Assembly: GCA_963790185.1 (NCBI GenBank)
Contig: CAWBNR010000007.1
Location: 105,698-169,697 of the forward strand
Direction of reading: 5' to 3'
Origin: an uncultured Thermoleophilia bacterium
Lineage (GTDB): Bacteria; Actinomycetota; Thermoleophilia; UBA2241
Length of the DNA stretch: 64,000 nucleotides
Part shown: positions 1-44,140 of the stretch, piece by piece
Layout of the letters: each line of letters opens with the position of its first letter
Numbering within the stretch: position 1 is the stretch's first letter
The notes under the pieces: generated by a model
What the model saw: the letters and a program-made list of their open reading frames with translations, nothing else
The model's database searches: none
What the model was told of the DNA's origin: nothing
Position numbers and translations under genes: made by a program

Positions 1-1466
1 GCGGCGCTGCAGATGACGACCGACGCCGTGCCGGCCATCTATGAGCTCGAGCACTGGGGGTGCCCGTTCAGTCGTTTCGACGACGGGCGCATTGCCCAGC
101 GGCCGTTCGGCGGCGCGGGCTACCCGCGCACCTGCTACGGCGCCGACAAGACCGGCCTCTACATGCTGCACACCCTCGTGCAGGAGGCGTACCGGCGCCA
201 GGTCACGATGTACATCGAGCGTTTCGTCTGCCGCCTCATCGTCGAGGACGGCGTCTGCCGCGGCGTCGTCGCCTACGACATGACCAAGGGCGGCTTCGAG
301 GAGTTCCGGGGTGACGCTGTGGTCATCGCCGTCGGCGGCGCCGGGCGCACGTACTCCAACACGACGAACGCCGTCATCTCGACCGGCTTCGCGTCGGCGG
401 TCGCCTATCAGGCCGGCGTGCCGCTCAAGGACATGGAGTTCGTCCAGTTCCATCCGACCGGCGCTCTACACCACGCACATCCTGATGACCGAGGGCTGCC
501 GCGGTGAGGGCGGCTACCTCCTCAACAAGGACGGCGAGCGCTTCATGGGGCGCTACGCGCCGAAGGCCATGGAGCTCGCCCCGCGCGACATCACCTCGCG
601 CTCGATCCAGACCGAGATCAACGAGGGCCGCGGCATCGACGGCGGCGACTTCGTCTACCTCGACCTGCGCCACCTCGGCGCCGAGAAGCTCGCCGAGCGT
701 CTGCCCGGCACGCGCGACCTGGCCATCCACTTCGAAGGCGTCGACCCGGTCTACGAGCCGATCCCGATCGCGCCCGCCCAGCACTACTCGATGGGCGGCA
801 TCGACACGGACGTCGATGGGGCGCACCGTCATGCCGGGCCTGCTACGCGGCAGGCGAGTGCGCCTGCGTGAGCGTGCACGGCGCGAACCGCCTCGGCGGG
901 AACTCGCTGCTCGAGACGGTCGTCTTCGGTCGCCGGGCCGGCGCCGCGGCCGCCCGCGACTCTCGGCCGGGCAAGGCGGCGGGTGCCGCGCGTCCCCGAG
1001 GGGGCGGCCGTCGTCGCGCTCGAGGCCGAGATCGACGAGCTGGCCGCGCGCGACGGCTCCGAGGACGCCTACGCGATCCGCGAGGAGATGACGGAGATGA
1101 TGCGCGAGCCACTTCGGCATCTACCGCGAGCAGGAGGCGATGAAGCAGGGCGTCGACAAGCTGCTCGCCCTCAAGGAGCGGCTGAAGCGGGCGAAGCTGC
1201 GCTTCACCGGTGGCATCTGGAACATCGACCTGATCCGCACTATCGAGCTGGACGGCATGCTCGACATCGCGCTCGCGACCGCCACCGGCGCGCTGGCCCG
1301 CACCGGAGTCGCGCGGCTCGCACTCACGGCTCGACTTCCTGACCCGGGACGACGAGCAGTGGCTGCGGCACACCATCGCTCACCACCAGCCCGACGGCGC
1401 CCGCCGCGGCTCGACTACAAGCCCGTCGAGCTCGGTCTCTTCGAGCCTGAGGAGAGGAAGTACTGA
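1..1466 (+). CDS. sdhA: Succinate dehydrogenase/fumarate reductase flavoprotein subunit (5' truncated, frameshifted)
   Basis: Motifs [62 protein letters not shown] and C-terminal ERKY* spread over ORFs 13-507, 311-871, 868-1143, 983-1342, 1140-1466. Confidence 0.92.
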
Positions 1467-2195
1467 TGCCCGACGTGACCCTCAAGATCCGGCGCAGCGA
1501 CCCGACGGCCGGCGCGCGAGCCCTACTGGCAGGAGTTCACGGTGCCGGTGGCGCCAGCATGACCGTGCTCGAGGCGCTCTTCTGGATCCAGGAGCATACC
1601 GACGGCTCGCTCGCCTTCCGCTACTGCTGCCGCTCGTCGATCTGCGGCTCCTGCGCGATGTACATCAACGGACGCTACCGGCTGGCCTGCCAGACGAACC
1701 TTTCCGCACCTCGGCGTCGACTCGCGTGACGGTCGCGCCGCTGCCGCACGTGCCGGTCGTGCGCGACCTGGTCTGGGACATGGACGACTTCTTCGAGAAG
1801 TACGAGGCGATCAAGCCGTGGCTGATCCACAACTCGAAGACTGCCCGACACCGAGGTCCTGCAGTCGCCCGAGGAGCGTCTCAAGCTCAATATGCCGATC
1901 GACTGCATCCTCTGCGCCTCGCTGCTACAGCTCCTGCCCGTCGGTCTGGAGGGAGGAGCACTTCCTCGGTCCGGCGGCGCTGCTCTGCGCCTATCGCTTC
2001 GAGGTCGACTCGCGCGACGAGGCCGGCAAGGAGCGTCTGCCGAGTTGGGACAACGAACGCGGCGTCTACCGCTGCCACACGATCACGAACTGCATCGAGG
2101 CCTGCCCCAAGGAGCTGAGCCCGACGGAGGGCATCCAGTGGCTCGAGGGGTTCGGCGGTCCGCCGCCGCCTGCTCGGGCGCAAGAAGTGAGGTGA
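1466..2195 (+). CDS. sdhB: Succinate dehydrogenase/fumarate reductase iron-sulfur subunit (frameshifted; 3' end approximate)
   Basis: SLAFRYCCRSSICGSCAM.ING..RLAC, PVVRDLV, CILC..CYSSCP, FLGPAAL, CHTITNCIEACPK; ATG overlaps the sdhA TGA. Confidence 0.9.
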
Positions 2196-2238
2196 ACGGG
2201 CCGCGAGGCCCGTCGGAGGCCGGGGACGCCGGCCGGCG

Positions 2239-2868
2239 TCAAGAGTCGTCGCCGGCCGGCTCCCCGGCCTCTTCGCGCGCCTGCTCGAGCCCGTGGCGGA
2301 TCAGCCCGGCCCAGTAGCGGATCACCGGTTCCAGGTCGAAGGTCTGGTCGGCGACGTGCTGCATGGCGAGACCGTCGCAGACCGCGACCGTGAGGGCGGT
2401 CAGCAGTCGACAGTCGCTCGCGCAGCTCGTCGTCGGCCTCGGGCTCGAGGGCATAGACGTCGAGTTCGCGGTACCAGTCGGAAGAGCTCGGCCATGCGCG
2501 GCCAGAGGCTCGGGTCGCGGATGAGGTTGGGGAAGAGGTCGAAGAAGAGCCGGTACTGGCGCAGGTTGGTGACGTGCGCAGGTGCTGCTCGAGGAGGATC
2601 GTCGACGCGGTCGTGATCGGGGCTCGCCTTCGAGAGCTCGCGTGAGCAGGCGGACGTTCTCGTCGTGGACCACCGAGTCGGCGAGCGCGCCGACCAGCCC
2701 CGCCTTGTTGCCGAAGTGGTAGCGGATCGAGGCCTTGTTCTCGCCCGCCTCGGCGGCGATCGCCTCGAGCGTGAGGCCCTCGAACCCTTCGCGGCCGAGC
2801 ACCCGACGCGCGGCGGCGAGGATGCGGCGCGCCGTCGGCGACAGCTCGGCCGCCGGGTCCTGGGTCAC
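2239..2868 (-). CDS. TetR/AcrR family transcriptional regulator (frameshifted mid-gene)
   Basis: ILAAARRVL.REGFEGLTLEAIAAEAGENKASIRYHFGNK HTH; divergent from the methyltransferase operon. Confidence 0.9.
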   Translation of the reverse strand: MTQDPAAELSPTARRILAAARRVLGREGFEGLTLEAIAAEAGENKASIRYHFGNKAGLVGALADSVVHDENVRLLTRALEGEPRSRPRRRSSSSSTCARHQPAPVPALLRPLPQPHPRPEPLAAHGRALPTGTANSTSMPSSPRPTTSCASDCRLLTALTVAVCDGLAMQHVADQTFDLEPVIRYWAGLIRHGLEQAREEAGEPAGDDS

Positions 2869-3004
2869 AAGCTGGCGCCTCTGACGCGGATCCCGTTGTC
2901 GGTCATCGTTCGCTCTCTCCGTCGGTCGTGCTCCTTGGCGGTCGCGGACGCTGCCCGCGTCCGCATCCCTGCATCACCGTTCAGCCTGCCCCATCGCCAC
3001 GGTG

Positions 3005-3060
3005 TTGACAAGACCTCCGCCAGGCATAGAATTGCGGCGGAGTTATCCATCCGGATGACT
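3005..3060 (+). promoter_or_regulatory. Sigma70-type promoter with candidate TetR operator
   Basis: TTGACA (3005-3010), 16 bp spacer, TAGAAT (3027-3032); imperfect palindrome AGTTATCC-ATCC-GGATGACT (3041-3060) just downstream. Confidence 0.7.
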
Positions 3061-3220
3061 ACACAGGCGGATGGCTTCACAAGGGGGTGCCGGGTGCGAT
3101 CCGGCGGTCTCGACGAGGCGCGCGGCGTGGCCACGGTCGGCAGGGCCCAGTCCGTCGCTGCACACCGCGTCGCGGCGCTCCAGAGTGTCGCGCGCATCGG
3201 TGCGTGGCGGAGGAAGGGGG

Positions 3221-4420
3221 ATGGATGGTCACTGCGAACGGCAGGTCCGGGGCAGGGCACACGACGAGGTCGAGAAGATCGCGAGCGCCGTCGCTCGCGG
3301 AGAGCTCACGCGACGTCAGTTCATCGAGCGCGGGGTCGCGCTCGGGCTCTCGGTCGGAGCGCTCGGCACGGTCCTCGCCGCCTGTGGCGGCGAGGAGGTC
3401 GCCGAGGAGACGCCGCAGGCGTGGACACGACACTGCCCGACCAGCTCCAGATCTACAACTGGTCCGACTACATGTCACCGGACTGTCTCAAGGACTTCGA
3501 GAAGGAGTACGGCGTCAAGGTTCGCGAGAGCTACTACGACGGCAACGAGTCGATGTTCGCCAAGCTGCAGGCGGGGGCGTCCGGCTACGACGTCATCTTC
3601 CCGACCGACATGTGGGTCTCGATCCTGCGCAAGAGCGACCTGATCCAGCCGCTCGACATGGCTCTGATCCCGAACTTCAAAACGTCACGCAGGCCGGTCT
3701 TCCAGAAGCCTGCCTTCGACAACCCCGACGACGCAGGACGGCAAGAAGTACTCGGTGCCGTACATGTTCGGCACGACCGGCTACGCGGCGACGCTCGCCA
3801 AGGTGCCGGCGCCGCAGGATCAGCTGGAGCCAGCTCTGGGACCCCGCCTACGAGCGCGAGATCTCGATGCTGAACGCGCCGCGCGAGACGCTCGGCGTCG
3901 GGCTCATCAAGCTCGGCTACTCGCCCAACACGACGAGCCAGGAGGAGCTCGACGCAGGCCGTCCAGCAGTGCATCGAGCAGAAGCCGCTGGTGCTCAAGT
4001 ACGACTCCACGAACACGCGACGCAGCATCGTCGCAGGGACTGCCGCTGACGCACTGCTGGGACGGCGACGTGGCCCTGGCGATCAAGGCGATCCCCGCCG
4101 AGAGCGTCAAGTACGTGCTGCCCAGCGAGGGGTACATCGTGTGGGCCGACGGCATCGCCATCCCGAAGACGGCACCCAACCCGTACGCGCGCGCACCTCT
4201 TCCTCAACTTCATGCTCGATCCCAAGAACGTCGGCGCCGGCGGCCGACTACATCGGCTACCAGCGCGTCGTCAGCGCCGCCATGGACTACATCACCAACG
4301 AGATCACAGCGCGCGATGCGCCCGAGCGACGAGGCCATCGAGGCGGGCACGCTCGCCGAGGACGTCGGCGAGTTCCAGCGCAACTTCGACGATGCATGGC
4401 GCGAGGTCGTGAGCGCCTGA
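3221..4420 (+). CDS. PotD/PotF-like amine-binding ABC substrate-binding lipoprotein with Tat signal (frameshifted)
   Basis: TRRQFI twin-arginine motif plus LAAC lipobox; LQIYNWSDY, YDGNESMFAKL, GYDVIFPTD, VPYMFGTTG, CWDGD, PSEG..VWADG. Confidence 0.85.
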
Positions 4421-4479
4421 TGCCGAGTGCCGGCGGGACCAGCCCGCCGGCGAACACGAGGACAGGACTGGAGAGCGGT

Positions 4480-5924
4480 TTGGACGACAGACTATCCGCA
4501 CTCGCACTGGGTGACGGCTCGCTCGTCGAGATGACGCGCGAGCGAGATGCGCGCCGACCTCGAGGACGGCACACAGCAGGCCGCGCCAAGCGCAGCAAGC
4601 TGCCGCCGCTGGGCGAGGACGAGCTCGACCACCTGCAGGACATCTTCTGCTCGAACGCGCGCTTCACCGCCGTCGACATCGGCGACGAGGTCATCCTGAG
4701 CTACGACGGCTCGGGCAACGCCGACGTCGGCTCGCGCATCGACGAGATGCTCGTCTACCAGAACCACCACGGCGCCGACATGACCGAGCTGTGGAACATC
4801 GACTACTCGTACAAGGCCGATCAAGACGATCCTGTCGTTCGAGGCCAACGCTCATGAAGATGTGCCAGCTCAACCTGGTCGCGTCCCGTGCAGTACGGGG
4901 CGATGCCCGACCTGGGCCGGTACTCGAAGCCGGACGGCCCGATGCCCGAACTGGTCGGAGCTGATGCCGCTGGGCAAGCATCGACGAGGCGCGCGCCGCG
5001 CAGGAGGAGGCCGCCGAGCATGGCCACCCGCGACATGGTCTTCGTCGCCGACGGTATGGTCGAGGCCGGCACCGACGGCATCGACTTCGACACCGCCGGC
5101 GCCGCCGGCGACGCCGACTTCCTGGCGACGCTGAGCGCGGTCGAGGAGATCCGGGCGACGCTACCCGGACATCGAGCATCGAGGTCGGCATGGCGAGCGA
5201 GTTCGTGCTCGGCATGCACGGCCAGCTCGAGTACAACGGCGTGCGGCTCGCCGGCATGTGGCCGCACGACCAGGTCAAGGCGGTGGCCGCCGCCGGCGGC
5301 GACGATCTACGGGCCGGCCGTCAACGTCAACACGCGCAAGTCGGTGGCCTGGAACGTGGCGCGCGCCGTCACCCTCGTGAAGAAGTGCTGCGAGGAGGCC
5401 GACGATCCCCGTCCACATGAACGTCGGCATGGGCGTCGGCGGCGTGCCGATGACCCCGTACCCGCCGATCGACGCCGTCTCGCGGGTCTCGCGAGGCGCT
5501 TGTCGAGATCACTCGCATGGACGGCTTGTAGGTCGGCGTCGGCGACCCCGTGGGCATGTCGAACGTCCCACACGCTCGCCTCGGGCCTGGGCGGGATGCG
5601 CGCCGCCGGAGATCTGGTGGCGCGCATGCAGATGACCCGAGGGATGCGCTTGAGAGAGGCCAAGGCCTACGTCGCCGAGCAGGCTCGGCGTCGTCGACCC
5701 TCGACCTCGTCGATCCCATCGTCATGCACGACGTGCGCGCCGAGCTCGGGCTGGGGCGCATCACCGTGCAGGACTCGACCTACGCCGACCAGCCGGACGC
5801 GATGGAGGCGAAGTTCCACATCGCCGAGGTGCTGGACGTCCCGATCAACAGCGTCGAGCGCTTCGCCGAACGGGCCGGTCTGGGGGCGCCACGTACGTCC
5901 GCCCGCGGCGCGGCGGCGAGCTGA
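4480..5924 (+). CDS. mtbB: Dimethylamine:corrinoid methyltransferase MtbB with in-frame amber (pyrrolysine) codon at 5529-5531 (frameshifted read; start approximate)
   Basis: MtbB motifs [74 protein letters not shown], then DGL-TAG-VGVGDP and [18 protein letters not shown]. Confidence 0.9.
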
Positions 5925-5940
5925 GCCGGGAGGTGCGCGA

Positions 5941-7414
5941 GTGAAACGGAACCTTCACGCAGGACACCCGCGGAGCGGCGGCCTCAGTCTCAACGTCTTC
6001 ACCGAGGCCGAGATGGACGACGATCCACTTCGCGACCCTCGAGGTACTGGAGCGCACGGGTGTGTTCGTCGAGGCCGATGAGGCGATCGACATCTTCGCG
6101 ACGACGGCTGCAGGGTCGACCGCGACACGCGTGTCGTCAAGATCCGGCCGCACCTGGTCGAGGACGCGGTCCGCTCGGCGCCGAGCAAGCTTCGTGCTCT
6201 GCGGCCGCGACCCGAAGAACGACGTCGTCATGGAGCCGGGCCGTGTCGCCTTCACGAACTTCAGCGAGGGCATCCGGATCATCGACGCGGTCACCGGCGA
6301 GTACCGCGATACAACGAAGCGGGACATCGCCGACATCGCGAGGCTGAACGACTACCTCAGCGAGATGGACACACACGAGATCGCGGTCGGCGCCGAGCGA
6401 CGCGCCGGCCGAGACCGTCGCGGTCCACAACGCCGAGCAGCAGCTGCTCAACACGACCAAGCCGATCGGCATCGGCCCGTTGTCGCGCCTCGAGAGCCAG
6501 GCCATCTTCCGCATGTGCGCCGAGGTGGTCGGCGGCGAGGACGAGCTGCGGGCGCGCCCTATCGTGTACAACGGCGTCTGCCCGGTCAGCCCGCTCAAGC
6601 TGCCGCACGAGGTCACCGAGGTGATCATCGAGACGGCGCGCTGGGGCCTGCCGTGCAACGTGCTCTCTATGGCCATGGCCGGGGGCTCGTCGCCGGTGAC
6701 GCTGGCGGGTTCTCTGGTGACCCACAACGCCGAGGTCCTCGCCGGCATCACCCTGTCGCAGCTGGTCGAGCGCGGCTCACCGGTCATCTACGGGAGCTCG
6801 ACGACGGCCATGGACCTCAAGCTCGCGGCCGCCAGCGTCGGCACGCCCGAGCTCGCCCTGATCAGCGCCGCGGTCGCGCAGATGGCGCGACGGTACCTGC
6901 TGCCGAGCTTCGTGGCGGGGTTGTAGGCGGATTCCAAGGTCAGTGACGCGCAGACCGGTCACGAGAAGACCCTCACCGGACTACTGGCAGCGTTGGCAGG
7001 GGCCAACCTGATCTACGGGGCGGGGATGATCGAATCGGGCGTCACCTTCGACTGCGGGCAGTTCGTGATGGACAACGAGTTCGCGCGCATGATCAAGCAC
7101 GTGGTGAACGGGATCCCGGTCGACGACGAGACCATGGCGGTGGAGGACATCGCCAAGGTCGGCGCCTTCGGGGACTTCCTGTCGCTCGACGCGACGCTGC
7201 AAGCACATGCGTGCCCTCAGCCAGCCGGCGTTCCTTGACCGCCGCGTGCGCGAAGACTGGCAGGAGCGGGGGTCGACCGACCTCTACGACCGCTGTCTCG
7301 CCGAGGCGCGCCAGGTGATCCAGGAGTACAGAGCCCGAGCCGTTGCCAGACGACGTCGCGCAGCGCGTTCACGATATCGTTGAGGAGACCGACCGGGCGA
7401 TGCACGTCGCCTGA
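5941..7414 (+). CDS. mttB: Trimethylamine:corrinoid methyltransferase MttB with in-frame amber (pyrrolysine) codon at 6924-6926
   Basis: MKRNLHAG start; [51 protein letters not shown]; [25 protein letters not shown] continuing in frame to [14 protein letters not shown]. Confidence 0.93.
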
Positions 7415-7437: not shown

Positions 7438-8074
7438 GTGAGTGACCAGTACGGACCACTGAAGCAGGCCGTGATCGACGGCAACGCCGATCTGACCGGT
7501 GCCCTCGTCCAGGCGGCGCTGGCGCAAGGGAAGTCCGCCAAGGAGATCCTCGAGGATGCCCTGCTGCCCGGCATGGCGGTCGTCGGAGAGCGCATGAAGA
7601 GCGGCGAGTGCTTCATCCCGGAGGTGCTGCTCTCGGCGCGCGTGATGCAGGGTGCGCTCGACACGCTGCGCCCGATGCTGGCCGAGGGCGAGGGCGGCAG
7701 CCTCGGCACGGTGGTCATCGGCACGGTCGAGGGCGACCTGCACGACATCGGCAAGAACCTGGTCGGGATGATGTTGGCCGGCGCCGGCTTCGAAGTGGTC
7801 AACTTGGGCACCGGCGTCACGACGCAGCAGTTCGTCACGGCCGTCAAGGAGCACGGAGCGAGGATCGTCGGCATGAGCGCCCTGCTGACGACGACGATCC
7901 CCCGCATGAAGGAGACGATCGACGCCCTGGCCGCAGCGGGGCTGCAGGGACAAGGTCAAGGTCATGATCGGCGGCGCCCCGGTGACGCAGGCCTTCTCCG
8001 ACGAGATCGGCGCAGACGGCTACGGCGCCAACGCCGGCGCCGCCGTCGACCGGGCGAAGGCGCTGGTCGGCTGA
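7438..8074 (+). CDS. Methylamine corrinoid (B12-binding) protein, MttC/MtbC family (one frameshift near 7950)
   Basis: FIPEVL..A..M, GTVEGDLHDIGKNLV (DxHxxG), GMSALLTTT, KVMIGGAPVTQ.F.DEIGADGY; TGA at 8072-8074 overlaps the next ATG. Confidence 0.92.
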
Positions 8075-9531
8075 TGGCGAAGGCCACCGAGCCCGGGCGC
8101 CTGGCGCCCCGCGTCAGCCTACTCACCGACGAGGCGTTCGCGTACCTGCACGAGCGCACGCTCGAACTGCTCGCCACCATCGGCGTGCGCTTCGCCAGCG
8201 ACCGCGCCCGCGGGCTGCTGCGCGACGCGGGCGCGCACGTCGACGACGAGAGCCTGCTGGTGCGCATCCCGGCCGAGCTCGTCGAGCGGGCCGTGGCGTC
8301 GGCGCCGCACGACGTGTTGCTGGCCGCTCGCGACGGCGAGCACGACGCTCTGCTCGACCGCTCCCGCACCTTCGTCGGGCACGACGGCATGGGAGCGATG
8401 ACCCTCGATCACCGCACGGGCGAGCGGCGCCAGTCGACCGACCGGGACCTCTACGAGGCCTGCGTCATCGCCGACGCCCTCGACGAGCTGGGCTTCTGCT
8501 GGTATGTGGCCACCCCCAACGATGCGGCGCCTGCCGTCCAGTCGCTGCAGGGCATCGCCACGATGCTGCGCGGGTCCGGCAAACACGTCCAGGGCGATCT
8601 GAGCGACCCGCGCCTCGTGCCGCACGCGCTCGAAGTCGCCGCCGCCGCGAGCCCCGGCGGCGTGTGGGACCCGGCGAGGCCGGTCTTCTCGATCGTCTAC
8701 TGCCCGGTCTCGCCGCTGCAGCACGACGCGGAGGCGCTTGACGCGGCGATGCTGCTCGCCGAGCAGGGCGTGCCGATCGTCGTCTACAGCCTCGCCCTCG
8801 CGGGGGCGACGGCGCCGGTCACGCTCGCCGGCACCATGGTCCAGACCAACGCCGAGATCCTCAGTGGGCTCGTGGCCCTGCAGCTGGCGGCCCCGGGCAG
8901 CCCCTTCGTGTACGTGGGCAACTCGAGCATCTTGGACATGAAGTCCTGTACCTTCGGCGCCTGCGGTCCCGAGGCCCTGCTCTTCAACCTCGCGCTGACC
9001 GAGATGGGGCACCGCTACGGGTTCCCGGTCCTCTCCGGCGGTCTCTCGAGCGACGCCAAGGAGCTCTGCATGCAGTCCGGCTACGAGGGTGGCACCATGG
9101 CCCTCCTGACGACGCTGGCCAGAGCCGACATGTTCGTCGGCGTCGGCATGCTCGACTCGGCCCAGTTCCTCTACCTGCCGAAGATGGTGCTCGACGCCGA
9201 GGTCATCGCCCAGTGCGCCCACGTGGCGCGCGGGGTGCAGCTCGACGACGAGCACGTGATGCTCGACGTGTCGGCGAGGCTGGGCCCCGGCGGCCACTTC
9301 CTCGGTGCCCGGGAGACGAGTTCGTTCCTGCGTCAGGGGGAGCACCACCAGCTCAAGCTGTTCATGCGTGGCTCCTACGACGCCTGGCGGGCTCACCCCG
9401 TCTCCGAGGACGAGCGGGCCGCGGCGGTCGTCGACGAGATCCTCGCCACTCACCAGCCGCCGCCGCTGCCTCCGGGCGGCCAAACCAGGATCGAGGCGGC
9501 CGTGGCCGCCGCCGCGGAAGGCCGCGACTAG
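8074..9531 (+). CDS. Non-pyrrolysine MttB-superfamily methyltransferase (MtgB-like; quaternary amine substrate possible)
   Basis: CPVSPLQHD, LAGATAPVTLAG..VQTNAEIL, SGGLSSDAK (sense codon at the Pyl-equivalent site), GPGGHFL. Confidence 0.88.
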   Translation: MAKATEPGRLAPRVSLLTDEAFAYLHERTLELLATIGVRFASDRARGLLRDAGAHVDDESLLVRIPAELVERAVASAPHDVLLAARDGEHDALLDRSRTFVGHDGMGAMTLDHRTGERRQSTDRDLYEACVIADALDELGFCWYVATPNDAAPAVQSLQGIATMLRGSGKHVQGDLSDPRLVPHALEVAAAASPGGVWDPARPVFSIVYCPVSPLQHDAEALDAAMLLAEQGVPIVVYSLALAGATAPVTLAGTMVQTNAEILSGLVALQLAAPGSPFVYVGNSSILDMKSCTFGACGPEALLFNLALTEMGHRYGFPVLSGGLSSDAKELCMQSGYEGGTMALLTTLARADMFVGVGMLDSAQFLYLPKMVLDAEVIAQCAHVARGVQLDDEHVMLDVSARLGPGGHFLGARETSSFLRQGEHHQLKLFMRGSYDAWRAHPVSEDERAAAVVDEILATHQPPPLPPGGQTRIEAAVAAAAEGRD

Positions 9532-10505
9532 AACAGGCCCTCCGAGACCGCCAGGATCACGCCGCCGAGCGTGAGTAGGGCGGCGGCCACGAGCCGCAGG
9601 CCCACGCGCTCGCGCAAGGCGACGAAGCCGAAGGCGATGGCGAACACGGGTGACGCCGCCATGACGAGCGTGGTCAGCACCGGCCCGATGTGCTGCACGC
9701 ACAGGTAGAACAGGATCGTGACCACCGTCTCGAGCATCCCGGTGACCAGGATCAGCCTGATGGCGAGCCGGCGATCCGACGCGGAGAGGCGCCGCGGCGT
9801 CAGCGGGATCCGGCGCACGGCGACGACTGCGCCGAGGATGAGCATGCCGAGCACCTGACTCTCGATCATCATCGTCGCGGTGACGCTCCCGTAGGCCGAG
9901 TTCGCGAGGTCGATGAGGATCGGGCCGAGGCCCCAGCCGGCGGCGGTGACGAGCGAGAGGGCGATGATGACGGCGCGCGGGGCCGCGGGGCCGCCGGGCG
10001 CTCCCGGCTCGTACGCCGGTCCGCCGAGCGCGTCCACGGTCACGTCCGGCTCGTCCTCCATCCAGCGCGCGATGAACCAGACGCCGACCATGGCGACGGT
10101 CAGGCCGGCGATCGTCGGCGCGCCGATGGTCGCGCCCAGGATCACGAAGGCGAAGACCGCGGTCCACACCGGGTCGGTGCCGGCGATGGGCGCGACGACG
10201 CTGACGGCGCCCGCGCGCAGCGCGTAGTAGTAGGTGCTGAACGCCAGCAGCCAGGTGACGAGGGAGGAGAGGGCGATGTAGCCGGCGGACGCGAGGTCGA
10301 TGCCGAAGCCGTTGGGCCAGAGGTCGAAGACGGTGAGCGGCACGGTGACCGCGACCAGCCCCAGCGCCGACACGCCGCGCAGGAAGAAGTTCAGGGCGAG
10401 CGGGCTGACGTAGGAGAGAGTCCGCTTGTTGACGATCATGACGATCGCCCAGAGGGCGGTCATGCCGAAGGCGGCGAGAGTCCAGACGACGTACGTGCTC
10501 GAGAT
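9528..10505 (-). CDS. DMT/EamA family transporter
   Basis: About ten hydrophobic segments in two EamA repeats (YYALR...VS.VAPI; ALRERVG); SD GGAGGT 6 nt before an ATC at 10505. Confidence 0.82.
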   Translation of the reverse strand: MSSTYVVWTLAAFGMTALWAIVMIVNKRTLSYVSPLALNFFLRGVSALGLVAVTVPLTVFDLWPNGFGIDLASAGYIALSSLVTWLLAFSTYYYALRAGAVSVVAPIAGTDPVWTAVFAFVILGATIGAPTIAGLTVAMVGVWFIARWMEDEPDVTVDALGGPAYEPGAPGGPAAPRAVIIALSLVTAAGWGLGPILIDLANSAYGSVTATMMIESQVLGMLILGAVVAVRRIPLTPRRLSASDRRLAIRLILVTGMLETVVTILFYLCVQHIGPVLTTLVMAASPVFAIAFGFVALRERVGLRLVAAALLTLGGVILAVSEGLF

Positions 10506-10546
10506 CGCCGCACCTCCGGGTCGTGCCGCGGCGAGGCCGGGCAGTC

Positions 10547-10601
10547 GTCCGGATTCTACCGCAGCCGCGCCCTGGTGGCGCGGCTGCGGTAGAATCCGGA
10601 C
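10547..10601. repeat. Perfect 25-bp inverted repeat carrying TAGAAT on both strands between divergent genes
   Basis: GTCCGGATTCTACCGCAGCCGCGCC-ctggt-GGCGCGGCTGCGGTAGAATCCGGAC. Confidence 0.9.
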
Positions 10602-10626
10602 CGTCGCGTGACGCGGGAGGAGGAGC

Positions 10627-11169
10627 ATGAGGACCACAGTCGGCAGGACCGCTCTCGAGATCGTCTCGGGCGACATCACCGGACTCGCCGTCGACGCCGT
10701 CGCCAGCGCCGCCGCCACCGACCTCCGGATGGCGACCGGCGTCGCCGGTGCCCTCAAGCGCGCGGGCGGCGAGACCGTGGAGAGGGAGGCGGTGGCACAG
10801 GGGCCGATCGCGATCGGCGACGCCGTCGCCACGGCCGGCCACGACCTCAAGGCGCCGTGGGTCATCCACGCCGCCGTCATGGGACCCGATCTGCAGACCG
10901 ACGCGCACGCGATCGCGCGGGCCACCGCCAGTGCGCTGGCGATGGCCGACAAGGTCGGCGCCCGCTCCCTGGCGCTGCCCGCCTTCGGCACCGGGGTCGG
11001 GGGCTTTCCCCTCTACCAGGGCGCCAGCATCATGGTGGCCGAGACGGTGCGTTGCCTGATGGCCACGCCGAAGACGAGTCTGCGTCACGTGATCTTCTCG
11101 GTCCACAGTGAGGCGGCCAGGGCGGCCTTCACCAACGCCATGGCAGGCCGCGGCCGTTTCGACCGCTAG
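10627..11169 (+). CDS. Macro domain (ADP-ribose-binding/processing) protein
   Basis: GDIT...VDAV..AA...L.M..GVAGAL.RAGG, VIHAAVMG, SLALPAFGTGVGG; SD GGAGG. Confidence 0.9.
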   Translation: MRTTVGRTALEIVSGDITGLAVDAVASAAATDLRMATGVAGALKRAGGETVEREAVAQGPIAIGDAVATAGHDLKAPWVIHAAVMGPDLQTDAHAIARATASALAMADKVGARSLALPAFGTGVGGFPLYQGASIMVAETVRCLMATPKTSLRHVIFSVHSEAARAAFTNAMAGRGRFDR

Positions 11170-15823: not shown

Positions 15824-16381
15824 GTGCGCTGTCCCTACTGCGGAAGTGACGAGAGCCGTGTCGTCGACTCTCGTGACTCCGAGGCCGGCGACGCGGTGCG
15901 CCGCCGGCGCGAGTGCGCGGACTGCGACCGGCGCTACACGACCTACGAGCGTGTCGACGACGTGCCGCTCGTGGTGGTGAAACGCGACGGCCGTGAGGAG
16001 ATGTTCGCGCGCGCCAAGCTGCTCAACGGTCTGCTGCGCGCCTGCGAGAAGCGCGGCATCCCGCGCGAGCGGCTCGAGCGCGCGGTCGACGAGATCGAGG
16101 CGGGGCTCCGGCAGGCAGGGCGCGGTCGCGTGAGCACGAGAGAGGTGGGCGAGCGCGCGCTGCGGTTTCTGCGCGAGATCGACAAGGTCGCCTACGTGCG
16201 GTTCGCCTCCGTCTACCGGCAGTTCGAGGACCTCGAGGAGTTTCAGAAGGAGCTGGCCCGGCTGGAGGAGGCAGGGGTGGGGCCCCTGCCGGGAGAGGAG
16301 CCGTTGCCGGGGCTCGACGGCGAGCTCGAGGCGCTCGTGGCCGAGCGCCGCTCGACGACGACCACACGACCGATCGCTTGA
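15824..16381 (+). CDS. nrdR: Transcriptional repressor NrdR
   Basis: MRCPYC...SRVVDSR, RRRREC..C..RYTTYER, ATP cone, [15 protein letters not shown]. Confidence 0.97.
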
Positions 16382-16412
16382 CGGGGACAATGGGACAAGG
16401 GGCAGGAGACAG

Positions 16413-18635
16413 ATGTCGAAAGCAGTGATCGAACTCACCCCGAACGCGCTGCGCGTGCTGCAGCGGCGGTATCTGAAGAAGGGGGAGAACGGGGAGATCC
16501 TCGAGACCCCCGAGGAGATGTTCCGCCGGGTGGCGCACGCGATCGCCCAGGCGGAGCGGCTGTACAACCCCGCGGCTCCGGTCGAGCAGTGGGAGGAGAC
16601 CTTCTACGAGCTCATGACCGGGCTCGACTTCCTGCCCAACAGCCCCACCCTCATGAACGCCGGGCGCGAGCTGGGCCAGCTCTCCGCCTGCTTCGTCCTC
16701 CCCGTCGGCGACTCCATGGATTCGATCTTCGAGGCGATCAAGAACACGGCGCTCATCCACAAGAGCGGCGGCGGCACCGGCTTCAGCTTCTCGCGCGTGC
16801 GCCCCAAGAACGACGTCGTGCTCTCCACCAAGGGCGTCTCGTCCGGGCCGCTCTCGTTCATGAGCGTCTTCGACGCGGCCACGGAGACCATCAAGCAGGG
16901 CGGTACGCGGCGCGGCGCCAACATGGGCATCATGCGGGTGGACCATCCCGACATCCTCGAGTTCATCACCGCCAAGCAGGACGACAGCCGCCTCAACAAC
17001 TTCAACATCTCGGTGGCGGTCACCGACGCCTTCATGCGCGCCGTCGAGCACGACGAGGACTACGCGCTCGTCAACCCCCGGTCCGGCGACCTCGGCCAGA
17101 AGCTGAACGCGCGCAAGGTCTTCAAGACGATGGTGACGTTGGCGTGGAAGAACGGCGACCCCGGCATCGTCTTCATCGACCGCATCAACGCCGACAACCC
17201 GACACCGCACCTGGGCGACATCGAGAGCACGAACCCCTGCGGGGAGCAGCCGCTGCTGCCCTACGAGTCGTGCAACCTCGGTTCGATCAATCTCGCCACG
17301 GTGGCCGACGAGGGGCACGTCGACTACGGCCGTCTCGGGCGCATCGTCAAGACGGCCGTCCGCTTCCTCGACGACGTCATCGACGTCAACCGTTACCCGC
17401 TGCCCGAGATCGAGGAGATGACCAAGGGCAACCGCAAGATCGGCCTCGGCGTCATGGGTTTCGCCGACCTGCTCCTCAGGCTCGGCGTGCCGTACGACTC
17501 CGAAGAGGCCTGCACGATCGCCGGCGAGCTCATGGCCTTCGTCCACCAGGAGGCGCGCGCGGCCAGCGAGGAGCTCGCCGCCGAGCGCGGCGTCTTCCCG
17601 AACTTCGAGGGGTCGGTCTACGACCATCCCGACATGCCGCGCGTGCGCAACGCGACCACGACGACCATCGCGCCGACCGGCACGATCAGCATCATCGCCG
17701 GCTGCTCCAGCGGCATCGAGCCGCTGTTCGCGCTCTCGTACGTGCGCGCCAACGTCCTTGACGACGAGCGCATGGTCGAGGTCGATCCGTACTTCGAGAA
17801 GGTGGCGCGGGAGCGCGGCTTCCACAGCCCCGAGCTCATGAAGCGCATCGCCGACGAAGGTACGGCGCGGGGGCTCGACAGCGTGCCGGTCGATGTACGG
17901 ACGACCTTCGCGACCGCTCACGACATCACGCCGGAGTGGCACATCAAGTTGCAGGCGGCCTTCCAGGGGCACACCGACAACGCCGTCTCCAAGACCGTCA
18001 ACTTCGCCAATTCGGCGACGAGCGACGACGTGGAGAAGGTCTACCTCCTGGCCTACACGTCCGGCTGCAAGGGCGTCACGATCTACCGTGACGGCAGCCG
18101 CGAGGAGCAGGTGCTGAACGTCGGGCAGAGCATGAAGAAGAAGGACCCCGGCCACGGGATCGCGACGACGCGACCTTCGCGCCCGAGACTCCTCACCGGA
18201 CAGACCGAGCGCATGGAGACGGGCTGCGGTCACCTCTTCATCATCATGAACGACGACGAGTACGGGCCGCGCGAGGTCTTCGCCAACATGGGCAAAGCGG
18301 GGGGCTGCGCGTCGTCCAACACCGAGGCGCTGGGCCGGCTCATCTCGCTCGCGCTCAAGAAGGGAGCGGAGCCGGCCGAGGTCGTGGAGCACCTCAAGGG
18401 GATCCGCTGTCACGTTCCGTACGGGATCGGGCCCAACGCCACGCTGAGCTGCGCCGACGCCATCGGCAAGGCGCTCGAGCGGCGGTACGTGACCGGAGCC
18501 GCTCAAGGCACGCCCGAGCCGCAACTGTCCCTGGTCGAGGTCGCGCAGGGCGCCTGCCCCGACTGCGGTGGCGTCATCGAGCACGAGGGCGGGTGCGTCG
18601 TGTGCCGGCTGTGCGGCTACTCCAAGTGTGGCTGA
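16413..18635 (+). CDS. nrdJ: Class II (B12-dependent) ribonucleotide reductase with TSCPD domain and C-terminal Zn ribbon
   Basis: [64 protein letters not shown]...EGGCVVC..CGYSKC. Confidence 0.96.
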
Positions 18636-29733: not shown

Positions 29734-30678
29734 TCACGCCACGGCCGGCCGCGGCAGCAGGCCGGCCGCCTCGACGATCTCAGGCACCGCCGGCTCCCAC
29801 TCGACGGCCATGATGTGCACGCCGGCGACGCCTTCGACCTCGGCCAGCTCCTTGATCATCTCGACGGCGAGCTTCTTGCCCTCGGCCTGTTGCGGCTCGC
29901 CCTTCTCCTTGGCGGCCACGCGGTCGACGATCTCCTGCGGCACGTCCATGCCGGGCACGAACTTCTTCATGTAGTTGGCCATGCCGGCGCCCTTGATCGG
30001 CGTGATGCCGGCGAGGATCTTGATCTCCTGGTGCAGGCCCAGGGCGCGGACCTCCTTCATCCACTTCTTGAACTTGGGGATGTTGAAGATGCACTGGGTC
30101 TGCATGAAGTCGGCGCCGGCCTCGATCTTCTTCTTGAGGCGCAGGGCGCGGAGCTCGAACGGGTCGCCGAAGGGGTTCTCGGCGCAGCCGATGTAGAGCT
30201 CGGGCGCGACCGGCATCTCGTCGCCGCACTGGAACTTCTTCTCGTCGCGCATGTCCTTGTACATCTTGATGAGGTTGATGGCGTCGAGGTCGTGCACGCC
30301 CTTGGCCTCGGGGTGGTTGCCGAAGCTCAGGTGGTCGCCGGTGAGGCAGAGGATGTTCTTGATGCCCAGGGTGGAGGCGCCGAGGATGTCGGCCTGCATC
30401 GCCAGGCGGTTCCGGTCGCGGCAGGTCATCTGCATGATCGCCTCGACGCCGTTCTGCTGGGCCGCGTAGCCCGACGCCATGGAACAGACGCGCACCACGG
30501 CGGTCTGGTTGTCGGTGATGTTGACGGCGTCGACGTAGCCCTTGAGGATCTTGGCCTTCTGTTCGATGACGCTGCCGTCGGCGCTCTTCGGCGGGCCGCA
30601 CTCGCCGGTGACGGCGAACGTGCCCGCCGCGAGGATCTTCTCGAGGTTGGAGCCGGCCTTGTACCCGTTGTCGCTCAT
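29734..30678 (-). CDS. metF: Methylenetetrahydrofolate reductase MetF
   Basis: VTGECGPPK, NITDNQ, QMTCRDRNR.A.Q.D.LG, LTGDH, KK.EAGADF.QTQ, GVHIM. Confidence 0.95.
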   Translation of the reverse strand: MSDNGYKAGSNLEKILAAGTFAVTGECGPPKSADGSVIEQKAKILKGYVDAVNITDNQTAVVRVCSMASGYAAQQNGVEAIMQMTCRDRNRLAMQADILGASTLGIKNILCLTGDHLSFGNHPEAKGVHDLDAINLIKMYKDMRDEKKFQCGDEMPVAPELYIGCAENPFGDPFELRALRLKKKIEAGADFMQTQCIFNIPKFKKWMKEVRALGLHQEIKILAGITPIKGAGMANYMKKFVPGMDVPQEIVDRVAAKEKGEPQQAEGKKLAVEMIKELAEVEGVAGVHIMAVEWEPAVPEIVEAAGLLPRPAVA

Positions 30679-31358
30679 ACCGGCTTCGCCTCCTCCCTGA
30701 CCATCTTGCGCGGGCCGCCGGAGCTGCTCTTGCTCCAGTCCTTCGGCGGCCGCTCGGCGAAGAACAGCTCCTCGCGGCCCTGCGCCTTGAGGCGCTCCCA
30801 GATGAGGGCCCAGGCGCAGTCGATCTCTTCCTTGTTCGGACCGGTGACCTCGCACTTGCCGTCGTGCGAGCCGCCGCAGGGGCCGTTCATGAGGCTCTTG
30901 CTGCAGCGCACGACGGGGCAGATGCCGCCGGTGAGGCCGATGCGGCACTCGCCGCAGGCGGCGCAGCGCTCGAGCCAGACCGCGTGCTCCTGCGGCATGC
31001 CCAGCATGTTGGTGTTGACGGCCGGCATGACGAGCTTCGGCTCGAACTTCTCGGCCATGCTCTGGATGCCGATGCCGCAGGCCATGCTGAGCACGACGTC
31101 GGCGTCCTCGACCTTGTCGGCGATCATGTCGAGGTACTCCCACTCGCACTGGCGGATCGCGGCGGTGTGCTCGACCTCGACCTCGCGCCCGTCGGCCTGC
31201 GCCTTCATGCGCAGCTCGCTGGCGAGGATCTCGGCCTCCTTCTCGCCGCCGGTGAGGCAGATGGCGACGCAGGTGTCGCAGCCGGCGACGAGGATCTTCT
31301 TCTGTCCGTCGACGAGGTCGAGGATCTCGTCGAACGGCTTGCGTTCAGCGGTGATCAT
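30675..31358 (-). CDS. metV: MetV (MTHFR small Fe-S/Zn subunit)
   Basis: MITAERKP..EI, GC..C...C..GG, RQCE, ACG.G.Q, CAACGEC, CP..RCSKSL.NGPCGG, CAW. Confidence 0.9.
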   Translation of the reverse strand: MITAERKPFDEILDLVDGQKKILVAGCDTCVAICLTGGEKEAEILASELRMKAQADGREVEVEHTAAIRQCEWEYLDMIADKVEDADVVLSMACGIGIQSMAEKFEPKLVMPAVNTNMLGMPQEHAVWLERCAACGECRIGLTGGICPVVRCSKSLMNGPCGGSHDGKCEVTGPNKEEIDCAWALIWERLKAQGREELFFAERPPKDWSKSSSGGPRKMVREEAKPV

Positions 31359-31981
31359 TCGGCGGGTCCCTTCTCGGTGGTGGCGTCGGGAGATCCGGGG
31401 GCGGCCGCGACGGCTGGCGCCTCGTCGGGCATGGCGACGTCGCTGGCGGCCTCGCGGGCCGCGGCGTGCGGCGAGACGCCGTGGCGCCGCAGCGGGTTCG
31501 GCCCGAGACGCTTGATGCGGTCGGTGAACTCGGTCGCGACGCTCGGCGAACTCGGCGCCCATCGCCGACGACATGTTGTACATCTCCACGCGCTCGGGCT
31601 CGACGCCGACCTCGGCGAGGAGCTTCTTGACGTAGGCTCGATGCGCTTGCGTGCCCAGAGGTTGCCCTTGAGGTAGTGGCACTCGCCCTCGAGGCAGCCG
31701 GCGGCGTAGACGCCGTCGGCGCCGGCCTCGAGCGCGCGCAGCAGATGGATGACCTCGAGCTTGCCGGTGCAGGGCAGCTTGATCATGCGGATGTTCGACG
31801 GGTACTGCAGGCGCATGCTGCCGGCCAGGTCGGCGGCCGCGTAGGCGCAGTAGTGACAGGCGAAGACGATGATCTCGGGCTCGAAGTCGGGGTCGACCGG
31901 CTTCTTCGGCGCCTCGACGGCTGCGCTCGGCCCTCGGCGTCGTCTCCGGAGCCGCGACGACCGCGTCGGGTCGTCGGCCAT
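31355..31981 (-). CDS. mvhD: MvhD/FlpD [2Fe-2S] subunit (frameshifted)
   Basis: FACHYCAYAAADLAG, PCTGK, GADGV...GC.EGECHY..GN, ERV.MYNMSS. Confidence 0.9.
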   Translation of the reverse strand: MADDPTRSSRLRRRRRGPSAAVEAPKKPVDPDFEPEIIVFACHYCAYAAADLAGSMRLQYPSNIRMIKLPCTGKLEVIHLLRALEAGADGVYAAGCLEGECHYLKGNLWARKRIEPTSRSSSPRSASSPSAWRCTTCRRRWAPSSPSVATEFTDRIKRLGPNPLRRHGVSPHAAAREAASDVAMPDEAPAVAAAPGSPDATTEKGPAE

Positions 31982-31987
31982 CTCAGC

Positions 31988-43922: not shown

Positions 43923-44044
43923 GAGACCGCTCCGCTCTGGCCGGGGACGGTCCTCAGGATACCCGAGCGCGCCGATGCGAGCAGCCGGCCACCCCGCTTG
44001 CCCGTCTGTCCCGGGCCTCTTCGGCGGAGTGGACGCGGGGGCGA

Positions 44045-44073
44045 TTGACATCACCGCGCCGGGCCGGTTTACT
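44045..44073 (+). promoter_or_regulatory. Sigma70-type promoter
   Basis: TTGACA, 17 bp spacer, TTTACT upstream of the FAD oxidoreductase gene. Confidence 0.55.
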
Positions 44074-44140
44074 GCGAGATGAGGCGCCGCGCCGCGTCGC
44101 CTTTGCCAGTCGCTCCAACGCAGACGATGAGGAGACCACG

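What the first reader, a model, noticed from the sequence alone, without database searches (positions are those of the whole stretch)
4480..7414. Two adjacent methylamine methyltransferases with amber codons at the pyrrolysine site: genetic-code expansion in a high-GC, probably actinobacterial anaerobe
Seen: mtbB reads DGL-TAG-VGVGDP (TAG 5529-5531) and mttB reads SFVAGL-TAG-ADSK (TAG 6924-6926), with family-conserved sequence continuing in frame after each TAG. Known: MtbB and MttB of methanogens and some Firmicutes/Deltaproteobacteria use pyrrolysine encoded by UAG at these active-site positions. Two independent TAGs at the expected sites are very unlikely to be read errors, which here are mostly indels. 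Inference: this organism decodes UAG as Pyl. The neighbourhood looks actinobacterial, a group not usually associated with Pyl, and bacterial MtbB is uncommon. The ORF track splits both genes, so standard annotation would miss this.
Basis: partly seen in the sequence, partly recalled or inferred. Interest (0 to 1): 0.92.

Follow-up and report, generated by a model that had tools for sequence, protein, structure and literature searches.

The report
Pyrrolysine methylamine methyltransferases in a Thermoleophilia genome
Two neighbouring genes for dimethylamine and trimethylamine methyltransferases really do carry an in-frame amber codon where pyrrolysine belongs, in an uncultured soil-type actinobacterium, but this trait has already been reported for that phylum, so it is a further example and not a new kind of biology.

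Summary
TAG 5529-5531 lies in an MtbB-type gene (4480-5924). TAG 6924-6926 lies in an MttB-type gene (5941-7414) and aligns with the modified residue X334 of the solved trimethylamine methyltransferase 7XCL. Both genes are also broken by 23 single-base frameshifts, 21 of them extra bases. These are assembly errors: orthologues in three same-genus genomes are intact with one TAG each, and contigs from other runs lack the extra bases. The genome is a 76%-complete MAG with 69% GC, of class Thermoleophilia (Actinomycetota). It holds pylB, pylC, pylD and a tRNA-Pyl(CUA), at least seven further MtbB copies and one further MttB copy, each with one in-frame TAG. pylS is missing from the assembly. In the nearest relative it sits 975 bases beyond the point where contig C13 ends, and 12 of 12 same-genus genomes have it. 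TAG is still about 21% of stop codons and RF1 is present, so UAG is read two ways and is not reassigned genome-wide. Pyl in Actinobacteria is already in print: two genomes in a 2022 PylRS survey, and Actinobacteriota MAGs expressing Pyl-type mttB and mtbB in 2023. Verdict: a new member of a known kind. What may be under-described is that nearly the whole family carries the system, with 1-13 MtbB matches per genome.

The parts
1..1466 (+). Flavoprotein subunit of succinate dehydrogenase/fumarate reductase, in pieces. Context only; it shows that indel errors also hit housekeeping genes.
   Evidence: Pfam FAD_binding_2 in 1-504 and Succ_DH_flav_C in 1101-1463, with a frame-broken middle. The intact orthologue lies upstream in G007.
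2215..3009 (-). TetR-family regulator, divergent from the operon. Position inferred by synteny; the window copy was not scored on its own.
   Evidence: Window 2199-9600 matches G007:C21 at 85% identity. The G007 ORF has Pfam TetR_N. Window ORF 2239-2868(-) is listed.
3030..4420 (+). Extracellular solute-binding protein just upstream of mtbB. Approximate start, inferred by synteny; frame-broken in the window.
   Evidence: The G007 orthologue (452 aa) has Pfam SBP_bac_8. Window ORFs 2665-3873 and 3755-4420 gave no Pfam hit on their own.
4480..5924 (+). mtbB, dimethylamine:corrinoid methyltransferase type, with 17 single-base frameshifts in this assembly.
   Evidence: PF09505 pieces. Frameshift-aware alignment to paralogue C7:296359-297717 gives 283 of 460 columns identical. 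The intact G003 orthologue scores 444.4 bits against the TIGR02368 cut-off of 369.1.
5529..5531 (+). In-frame TAG of mtbB, the inferred pyrrolysine codon.
   Evidence: Aligned to the TAG of paralogues and of orthologues in G003, G007 and G012. All 150 listed family matches have one TAG.
5941..7414 (+). mttB, trimethylamine:corrinoid methyltransferase type, with 6 single-base frameshifts in this assembly.
   Evidence: PF06253 pieces. Alignment to paralogue C20:171739-173142(-) gives 342 of 489 columns identical. PDB 7xcm/7xcl hit at E 3e-78. The G003 orthologue scores 688.9 bits against the TIGR02369 cut-off of 525.
6924..6926 (+). In-frame TAG of mttB, the inferred pyrrolysine codon.
   Evidence: Aligned to X334 of 7xcl_A, to the TAG of the paralogue and of three orthologues. 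A contig of run X1 covering 6803-6972 differs by a single letter, and one search lists 6890 A>G for X1 (the table is truncated), so the TAG is very probably kept.
7438..8080 (+). Corrinoid (B12-binding) protein, the presumed methyl acceptor. Approximate end.
   Evidence: Pfam B12-binding_2 and B12-binding at residues 8-167 of ORF 7438-9531. The orthologue is a separate 245-aa ORF in G007. The B12-binding match in the window stops at 78 of 121 profile positions, so the apparent fusion with the next gene is probably another frameshift (inference).
8023..9531 (+). MttB-superfamily paralogue without a TAG. Not the Pyl type; substrate unknown.
   Evidence: PF06253 at 258.6 bits with no stop inside. 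TIGR02369 gives 373.2 bits, below the cut-off of 525.
9528..10991 (-). EamA-family transporter, convergent with the operon.
   Evidence: Pfam EamA. Same arrangement in G007.

Best explanation
The window holds a methylamine-use operon of an uncultured member of class Thermoleophilia (Actinomycetota): solute-binding protein, mtbB, mttB, corrinoid protein, and a non-Pyl MttB-like gene.

mtbB and mttB each have one in-frame UAG that is translated as pyrrolysine. The organism's own Pyl system does this: pylB, pylC and pylD make the amino acid, and a split PylSc/PylSn synthetase charges tRNA-Pyl(CUA).

By analogy with the Methanosarcina enzymes, Pyl in the active site activates di- or trimethylamine, and the methyl group goes to the Co(I) corrinoid protein. 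From there it presumably enters tetrahydrofolate and Wood-Ljungdahl metabolism.

UAG also remains an ordinary stop codon in this genome, so decoding is ambiguous, as in other Pyl-using bacteria and in Methanosarcina.

The many frameshifts in both genes are insertion errors of the assembly, not gene decay.

Shown: the TAG positions, the family memberships, pylBCD and pylT, and the intact orthologues. Inferred: that Pyl is actually inserted, the substrates, the fate of the methyl group, and that pylS exists in this organism.
For: 1. Position of the TAGs.
- The MttB TAG aligns with X334 of 7xcl_A.
- The MtbB TAG aligns with the single TAG of five intact paralogues in the same genome, of three same-genus orthologues, and of all 150 listed matches in 31 family genomes.

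2. Family membership at equivalog level.
- The orthologues pass the curated cut-offs of TIGR02369 (688.9 against 525) and TIGR02368 (444.4 against 369.1).

3. Pyl machinery on contig C19.
- PylB scores 427.8 against 348.2, PylC 350.6 against 248.3, PylD 176.8 against 150.05.
- tRNA-Pyl with anticodon CUA is present. Its cloverleaf is kept across five loci, with compensatory changes in 6 of 23 pairs.

4. pylS.
- It is absent from the assembly, but PylSc is present in 12 of 12 same-genus and 23 of 24 same-family genomes. PylSn is present in 28 of 30 family genomes.
- The nearest relative (L040) is 96.3% identical to own C13:1-5025 and carries pylSc 975 nt beyond that contig end.
- In G012 the order is pylBCD, pylT, pylSn, pylSc, then the C13 flank.

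5. The frameshifts are errors.
- 21 of 23 are extra bases, and there are no stops other than TAG.
- 11 of the 12 listed 'left out 1' places in contigs of four other runs lie within 10 nt of my extra-base sites.
- The orthologues have 0 frameshifts.
- Neighbouring sdhA and a RACo gene elsewhere are broken in the same way.

6. UAG is still a stop.
- TAG ends 274 of 1269 coding-like ORFs.
- RF1 scores 471.7 against 423.25.

7. Downstream metabolism.
- A corrinoid protein is adjacent.
- AcsB and two RACo/RamA-type activases are in the genome.
Against: - No pylSc or pylSn is in this assembly. Own C19 runs from pylT into DNA that is not syntenic with G012, so a rearrangement or a real loss in this strain is not strictly excluded.
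- The window copies are too broken to be read as they stand. The contigs laid are only 88-99% alike, so they come from relatives, not from the same population.
- No protein or RNA evidence for Pyl insertion was obtained.
- The MtbB TAG was not aligned directly to an experimentally mapped Methanosarcina Pyl residue. No solved structure matched.
- Only one URO-D family gene was found, so the methylcorrinoid:THF or CoM methyltransferase step is unidentified.
- The stop-codon tally uses a crude GC3 filter on an error-rich assembly.
Confidence: 0.9

Rival explanations
1. The two window genes are decaying pseudogenes. The organism relies on its other mtbB and mttB copies, and the frameshifts are real.
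For: There are 23 frameshifts in 2.9 kb, while at least five other mtbB copies and one other Pyl-type mttB in the same assembly are uninterrupted.
Against: - 21 of 23 shifts are single extra bases. There are no new stop codons, and identity to paralogues is 62-70%.
- Flanking sdhA and the corrinoid gene are broken too.
- About half of the window lacks clean ORFs.
- Relatives' contigs lack the extra bases at the same places.
- The syntenic orthologues in G003, G007 and G012 are intact.
Confidence: 0.05
2. UAG is only a stop here. The genes give truncated or split products, and the Pyl system in this strain is defunct because pylS has been lost.
For: pylSc and pylSn were not found in the assembly. 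Synteny with G012 breaks right after pylT. Two small genomes of the family (G021, G044) lack both PylS and MtbB, so loss does happen in this family.
Against: - pylB, pylC, pylD and pylT are intact.
- The nine or so Pyl-type genes keep conserved sequence after the TAG.
- The assembly is only 76% complete.
- Contig C13 ends inside the block that holds pylSc in the nearest relative.
- In the family sample, genomes without PylS also lack MtbB altogether, which is not the case here.
Confidence: 0.04
3. UAG is reassigned to pyrrolysine across the whole genome, as reported in 2025 for some archaea.
For: There are many Pyl genes per genome: 9 MtbB matches here and up to 13 in the family. The TAG share of stops is lower than in one Pyl-free genome of the same class, 21% against 32%.
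Against: - TAG still ends about a fifth of coding-like ORFs here (274 of 1269) and in same-genus G012 (50 of 242). That equals its raw share among the three stop triplets.
- RF1 is present and intact.
- The one extra TAG inspected, in RACo on C18, is a frameshift artefact.
- The comparison genome differs in GC (77% against 69%), and only one genome was taken on each side.
Confidence: 0.01

Closest known systems
Trimethylamine methyltransferase MttB of methanogens (solved structures 7XCL, 7XCM, 7XCN)
   Same: The family is the same (E 3e-78 over 252 residues). The window's TAG falls on the modified residue X334, and the surrounding motifs are shared. A corrinoid protein gene lies next to it.
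   Different: The host is a high-GC bacterium. The methyl group cannot go to coenzyme M for methanogenesis, and its acceptor pathway here is only inferred (AcsB present).
Dimethylamine methyltransferase MtbB (NCBIfam TIGR02368 dimeth_PyL, Pfam PF09505)
   Same: The orthologue passes the equivalog cut-off. There is a single in-frame TAG at the family-wide column.
   Different: There are many diverged paralogues per genome: 9 matches here and 1-13 in the family, 47-63% identical to each other. From memory, Methanosarcina has about three. The substrates of the extra copies are unknown.
Pyl-using bacteria with split PylSc + PylSn (Firmicutes and Deltaproteobacteria; survey in PMC9630628)
   Same: The gene set is the same: pylT, pylB, pylC, pylD, with separate PylSc and PylSn in the relatives. 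UAG stays a stop as well.
   Different: The phylum is Actinomycetota, class Thermoleophilia. That survey counted only two Actinobacteria among 81 bacterial genomes. Here 23 of 24 sampled genomes of one family carry PylSc.
Actinobacteriota MAGs of Stordalen Mire expressing Pyl-encoding mttB and mtbB (PMC10805028)
   Same: The phylum, the two genes and the inference from amber truncation are the same. Two records from that kind of site (isolates fen_672 and palsa_647) are among the PylS relatives, at 73% and 64% identity.
   Different: That paper names the genus RBG-16-64-13 as the most active methylotroph of the phylum. The passages read do not mention pylTSBCD.

Membership tests
MttB, Pyl-type trimethylamine:corrinoid methyltransferase (TIGR02369 / PF06253) | Sequence scores above the curated equivalog cut-off | tested here: met
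   The G003 orthologue (87% DNA identity to the window) scores 688.9 bits against 525. The window's longest unbroken piece (266 aa) scores 420.9 bits over 264 of 469 positions.
MttB, Pyl-type trimethylamine:corrinoid methyltransferase (TIGR02369 / PF06253) | In-frame UAG at the pyrrolysine position of the characterised enzyme | tested here: met
   TAG 6924-6926 aligns with X334 of 7xcl_A, which is K in 7xcm_A.
MttB, Pyl-type trimethylamine:corrinoid methyltransferase (TIGR02369 / PF06253) | Cognate corrinoid protein encoded nearby | tested here: met
   B12-binding_2 plus B12-binding protein at 7438-~8080. It is a separate ORF in G007.
MttB, Pyl-type trimethylamine:corrinoid methyltransferase (TIGR02369 / PF06253) | TMA-dependent methylation of the corrinoid protein | not testable with these tools
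   Needs an enzyme assay.
MtbB, dimethylamine:corrinoid methyltransferase (TIGR02368 / PF09505) | Sequence scores above the curated equivalog cut-off | tested here: met
   The G003 orthologue scores 444.4 bits against 369.1, and own paralogue P0001 scores 423. The window copy aligns over 460 columns once 17 frameshifts are allowed.
MtbB, dimethylamine:corrinoid methyltransferase (TIGR02368 / PF09505) | Single in-frame UAG at the conserved Pyl column | tested here: met
   The column is the same in paralogues, orthologues and all 150 listed family matches. 119 of 120 database homologues stop there. No Methanosarcina sequence or solved structure was in hand, so identity with the experimentally mapped residue rests on family conservation.
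Pyrrolysine system (pylT, pylS, pylB, pylC, pylD) | tRNA-Pyl with CUA anticodon | tested here: met
   ARAGORN finds it at C19:19051-19123. The structure is conserved with compensatory changes. The Rfam scan lists no tRNA hit there, which fits an atypical tRNA.
Pyrrolysine system (pylT, pylS, pylB, pylC, pylD) | Biosynthesis genes pylB, pylC and pylD | tested here: met
   All three are above the NCBIfam equivalog cut-offs and lie next to each other on C19.
Pyrrolysine system (pylT, pylS, pylB, pylC, pylD) | Pyrrolysyl-tRNA synthetase (PylSc, with PylSn) | tested here: inconclusive
   Not in this 76%-complete assembly. It is present in 12 of 12 same-genus genomes. Its syntenic place lies just off the end of contig C13.
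Pyrrolysine system (pylT, pylS, pylB, pylC, pylD) | Pyl residue detected in the protein | not testable with these tools
   Needs mass spectrometry.

The most novel reading that the evidence does not exclude
An entire family of Thermoleophilia carries a largely vertically kept Pyl system together with a very large set of old, diverged Pyl-MtbB paralogues: 1-13 matches per genome, 47-63% identical to each other. Record titles of its PylS-bearing relatives point to soil, peat and sediment sources. This could mean that pyrrolysine chemistry has been recruited for a range of secondary or tertiary amines beyond dimethylamine, in bacteria that still use UAG as about a fifth of their stops. That would make the family a natural bacterial model for how ambiguous UAG decoding is managed at high Pyl demand.
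Probability: 0.3. Interest if true: 0.55.

Novelty: new member of a known kind. Interest (0 to 1): 0.33.

Why it matters
It adds a well-supported case of genetic-code expansion in Actinomycetota. It also shows that the trait is general across one Thermoleophilia family, and not an oddity of one genome.

There are two practical consequences. First, standard gene calling truncates every one of these methyltransferases at the UAG, so methylamine use by these bacteria is under-counted in soil and wetland carbon and nitrogen budgets. Second, indel-rich long-read MAGs can hide such genes further.

It does not change what is known about how pyrrolysine works.

Tried and rejected
- PylS in the own genome. 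An HMM search for TIGR02367 gave only a 24.8-bit hit on C5, far below the cut-off. TIGR03912 gave none. tblastn with three relatives' PylSc gave nothing better than E 3e-4, at that same C5 place.
- ORFs downstream of pylT on C19 gave no Pfam or NCBIfam family, so no divergent synthetase hides there.
- No solved structure matched MtbB.
- The one full-length database homologue, P0107, has Q at the Pyl column. Fourteen of the 15 listed members of its cluster are shorter, and 11 of them are 352 aa, ending at about the Pyl column. It is probably a call made under another code, and it was not used as evidence.
- The TAG inside the RACo match on C18 was considered as a further Pyl gene and rejected. 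The sequence after it reads as out-of-frame text, which indicates a frameshift.
- Genome-wide reassignment was considered and rejected.
- The MtmB-like gene on C8 gave no NCBIfam family at E 1e-10.
- Full-text search for 'pyrrolysine' with 'Thermoleophilia' found one unrelated soil paper, so no paper in the held library links the two words. Supplements of PMC10805028 and PMC9630628 are closed. They may name the Pyl-bearing actinobacterial genomes and could show that this very lineage is already listed.
Full report
**What is in the sequence**

Table-11 ORF calling shreds the region into many short frames, and the amber codons are the lesser cause.

I aligned intact paralogues from the same genome to the window DNA with a frameshift-aware dynamic programme.
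- The MtbB-type gene (4480-5924) needs 17 single-base frame corrections, 16 of them an extra base. It has no in-frame stop except the TAG. 283 of 460 columns are identical to the paralogue.
- The MttB-type gene (5941-7414) needs 6 corrections, 5 of them an extra base. Again the TAG is the only stop. 342 of 489 columns are identical.

In both genes the window's TAG falls on the paralogue's own TAG.

**Are the TAGs at the pyrrolysine site?**

For MttB, yes, directly. The unbroken 266-residue stretch around the TAG matches the solved trimethylamine methyltransferase (7xcm_A, 7xcl_A) at E 3e-78. The TAG aligns with X334 of 7xcl_A, the modified residue, which is K in 7xcm_A.

For MtbB there is no solved relative, so the evidence is family conservation.
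- Five intact copies in this genome read ...DG[LY]-TAG-[VIA]G[STA]GD....
- 119 of the 120 best homologues in the 5.8-billion-protein collection cover at most 75% of the query, meaning gene callers ended them at that codon. Only P0107 spans it, with Q. Eleven of the 15 listed members of its cluster are 352 aa long, ending at about that column.
- In 31 genomes of the same family, all 150 listed PF09505 matches have exactly one TAG.
- At equivalog level, the same-genus orthologues score 444.4 bits (cut-off 369.1) for TIGR02368 and 688.9 bits (cut-off 525) for TIGR02369.

**Frameshifts: errors, not decay**

- The syntenic orthologues in three same-genus genomes (G003, G007, G012; 79-87% DNA identity) have no frameshift, no stop and one TAG at the same column in each gene.
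- I laid contigs from four other public runs on the stretch. They leave out one letter at 12 listed places, and 11 of these lie within 10 nt of my extra-base sites. 41 more rows were not shown.
- The errors are not confined to these genes. The upstream sdhA-like gene is in pieces. The corrinoid gene loses its frame and seems fused to the next gene. Roughly half of the window lacks clean coding-like ORFs. A RACo gene on C18 acquires a spurious TAG through a frameshift.

**The rest of the Pyl system**

The window lies in a 2.44-Mb assembly of 22 contigs with 69% GC, rated 76% complete.
- Contig C19 carries pylB (427.8 bits against 348.2), pylC (350.6 against 248.3) and pylD (176.8 against 150.05) side by side.
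- About 1.3 kb downstream, past a PorA-like gene on the other strand, lies a tRNA-Pyl with anticodon CUA.
- Across five loci its cloverleaf is kept, with compensatory changes in 6 of 23 pairs. It has a 5-nt D-loop and a T-loop lacking the usual consensus. From memory, these are traits of tRNA-Pyl.
- PylSc and PylSn are not in the assembly. They are present in 12 of 12 other genomes of the genus and 23 of 24 of the family for PylSc, and in 28 of 30 family genomes for PylSn.
- In same-genus G012 the order is pylBCD, pylT, pylSn, pylSc, followed by DNA that matches own contig C13 from base 139 on.
- The nearest relative is 96.3% identical to C13:1-5025 and has pylSc 975 nt beyond the point where C13 stops.
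- So pylS most probably sits in an assembly gap. Own C19 leaves synteny after pylT, so a local rearrangement or a mis-join is also possible.

**How much Pyl use, and how is UAG read?**

- The genome has nine PF09505 matches at E ≤ 1e-30, counting the window's. At least seven separate genes outside the window each carry one TAG.
- There are about fifteen MttB-superfamily genes, of which only two carry a TAG.
- One MtmB-like gene has no TAG.
- The MtbB paralogues are 47-63% identical, so they are old duplicates.
- Across the family there are 1-13 matches per genome. The two small genomes without MtbB (G021, G044) are also the ones without PylSc and PylSn.
- UAG is not reassigned. It ends 274 of 1269 coding-like ORFs here and 50 of 242 in G012, which equals its raw share among stop triplets. 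RF1 is present above its cut-off. The tally is rough, because it uses a GC3 filter on an error-rich assembly.

**Operon and likely physiology**

By synteny with G007 the order is:
- sdhA, sdhB
- TetR, divergent
- solute-binding protein, mtbB, mttB, corrinoid protein, non-Pyl MttB-like gene
- EamA transporter, convergent

AcsB and two RACo/RamA-type activases are in the genome. That fits methyl transfer into a Wood-Ljungdahl-type route, but the step from methyl-corrinoid to the C1 carrier was not identified. This part is inference.

**Who is it, and is it new?**

- Same-genus and same-family records found with PylS are titled 'Thermoleophilia bacterium', or Actinomycetota or Actinomycetes, MAGs.
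- Guo et al. 2022 (PMC9630628, one passage read) list two Actinobacteria among 81 bacterial PylRS-encoding genomes. A 2025 review (PMC11764691, one passage read) repeats this.
- Ellenbogen et al. [quoted passage not shown] From memory, GTDB places that name in Thermoleophilia; I could not check this.
- No paper in the held library pairs 'pyrrolysine' with 'Thermoleophilia' in a relevant way. 'RBG-16-64-13' occurs in five papers (three listed), none of them on the Pyl system.
- Supplements were closed and may already list this lineage.

**Verdict**

What may be under-described is that nearly the whole family carries the trait, and that these genomes hold so many diverged MtbB paralogues.

Noticed in passing
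window 1-64000, e.g. 1466-5532, 30196-33624, 43573-53324: Indel errors come in patches. Long stretches have no clean coding-like ORF, while neighbouring genes such as 16134-18635 (ribonucleotide reductase) are intact. Within the two Pyl genes, 21 of 23 shifts are extra bases.
   Followed up: partly
window 7438-9531: The corrinoid protein and the following non-Pyl MttB-like gene read as one 697-aa ORF. In G007 they are separate ORFs, and the window's B12-binding match stops at 78 of 121 positions, so the fusion is probably a frameshift artefact.
   Followed up: partly
G000:C8:27540-28898 (-) = L115: MtmB-family (PF05369) gene at 225.9 bits with no in-frame stop, so it is a monomethylamine-methyltransferase homologue without pyrrolysine. 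It gave no NCBIfam family at E 1e-10.
   Followed up: partly
G000:C19:17823-19123 (L026 12824-14124): In this genome a PorA/PgfA-like gene on the opposite strand sits between pylD and tRNA-Pyl, and the DNA after pylT is not syntenic with same-genus G012, where pylT directly follows pylD and pylSn and pylSc come next. This is either a rearrangement or a mis-join. C19 also has the lowest GC of the contigs (66.7%).
   Followed up: partly
G000:C18:111299-112003 (+) = L167: A RACo/RamA-type activase next to the acetyl-CoA synthase gene shows one TAG inside the match. The text after it is out of frame, so it is an indel artefact and not a Pyl codon.
   Followed up: yes
Family sample: G021 and G044 (genus g10): Two small genomes (1.7-1.8 Mb, 98% complete) of the family lack PylSc, PylSn and MtbB together, while four other genomes of the same genus have them. 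This suggests loss of the whole trait as a unit.
   Followed up: no
G000:C20:166833-179085: A cluster of at least five MttB-superfamily genes, one of them with a TAG (171739-173142, minus strand), with a RACo-type activase just downstream (181569-182294).
   Followed up: no
L062, L080, L086-L114: After the Thermoleophilia records, the nearest PylSc relatives (51-61% identity) are titled Dehalococcoidales, Aminicenantes, Spirochaetes, Aerophobetes, Desulfosporosinus and Syntrophomonadaceae. Two 72-73% hits are titled Deltaproteobacteria and Zixibacteria, which may be binning or labelling errors.
   Followed up: no
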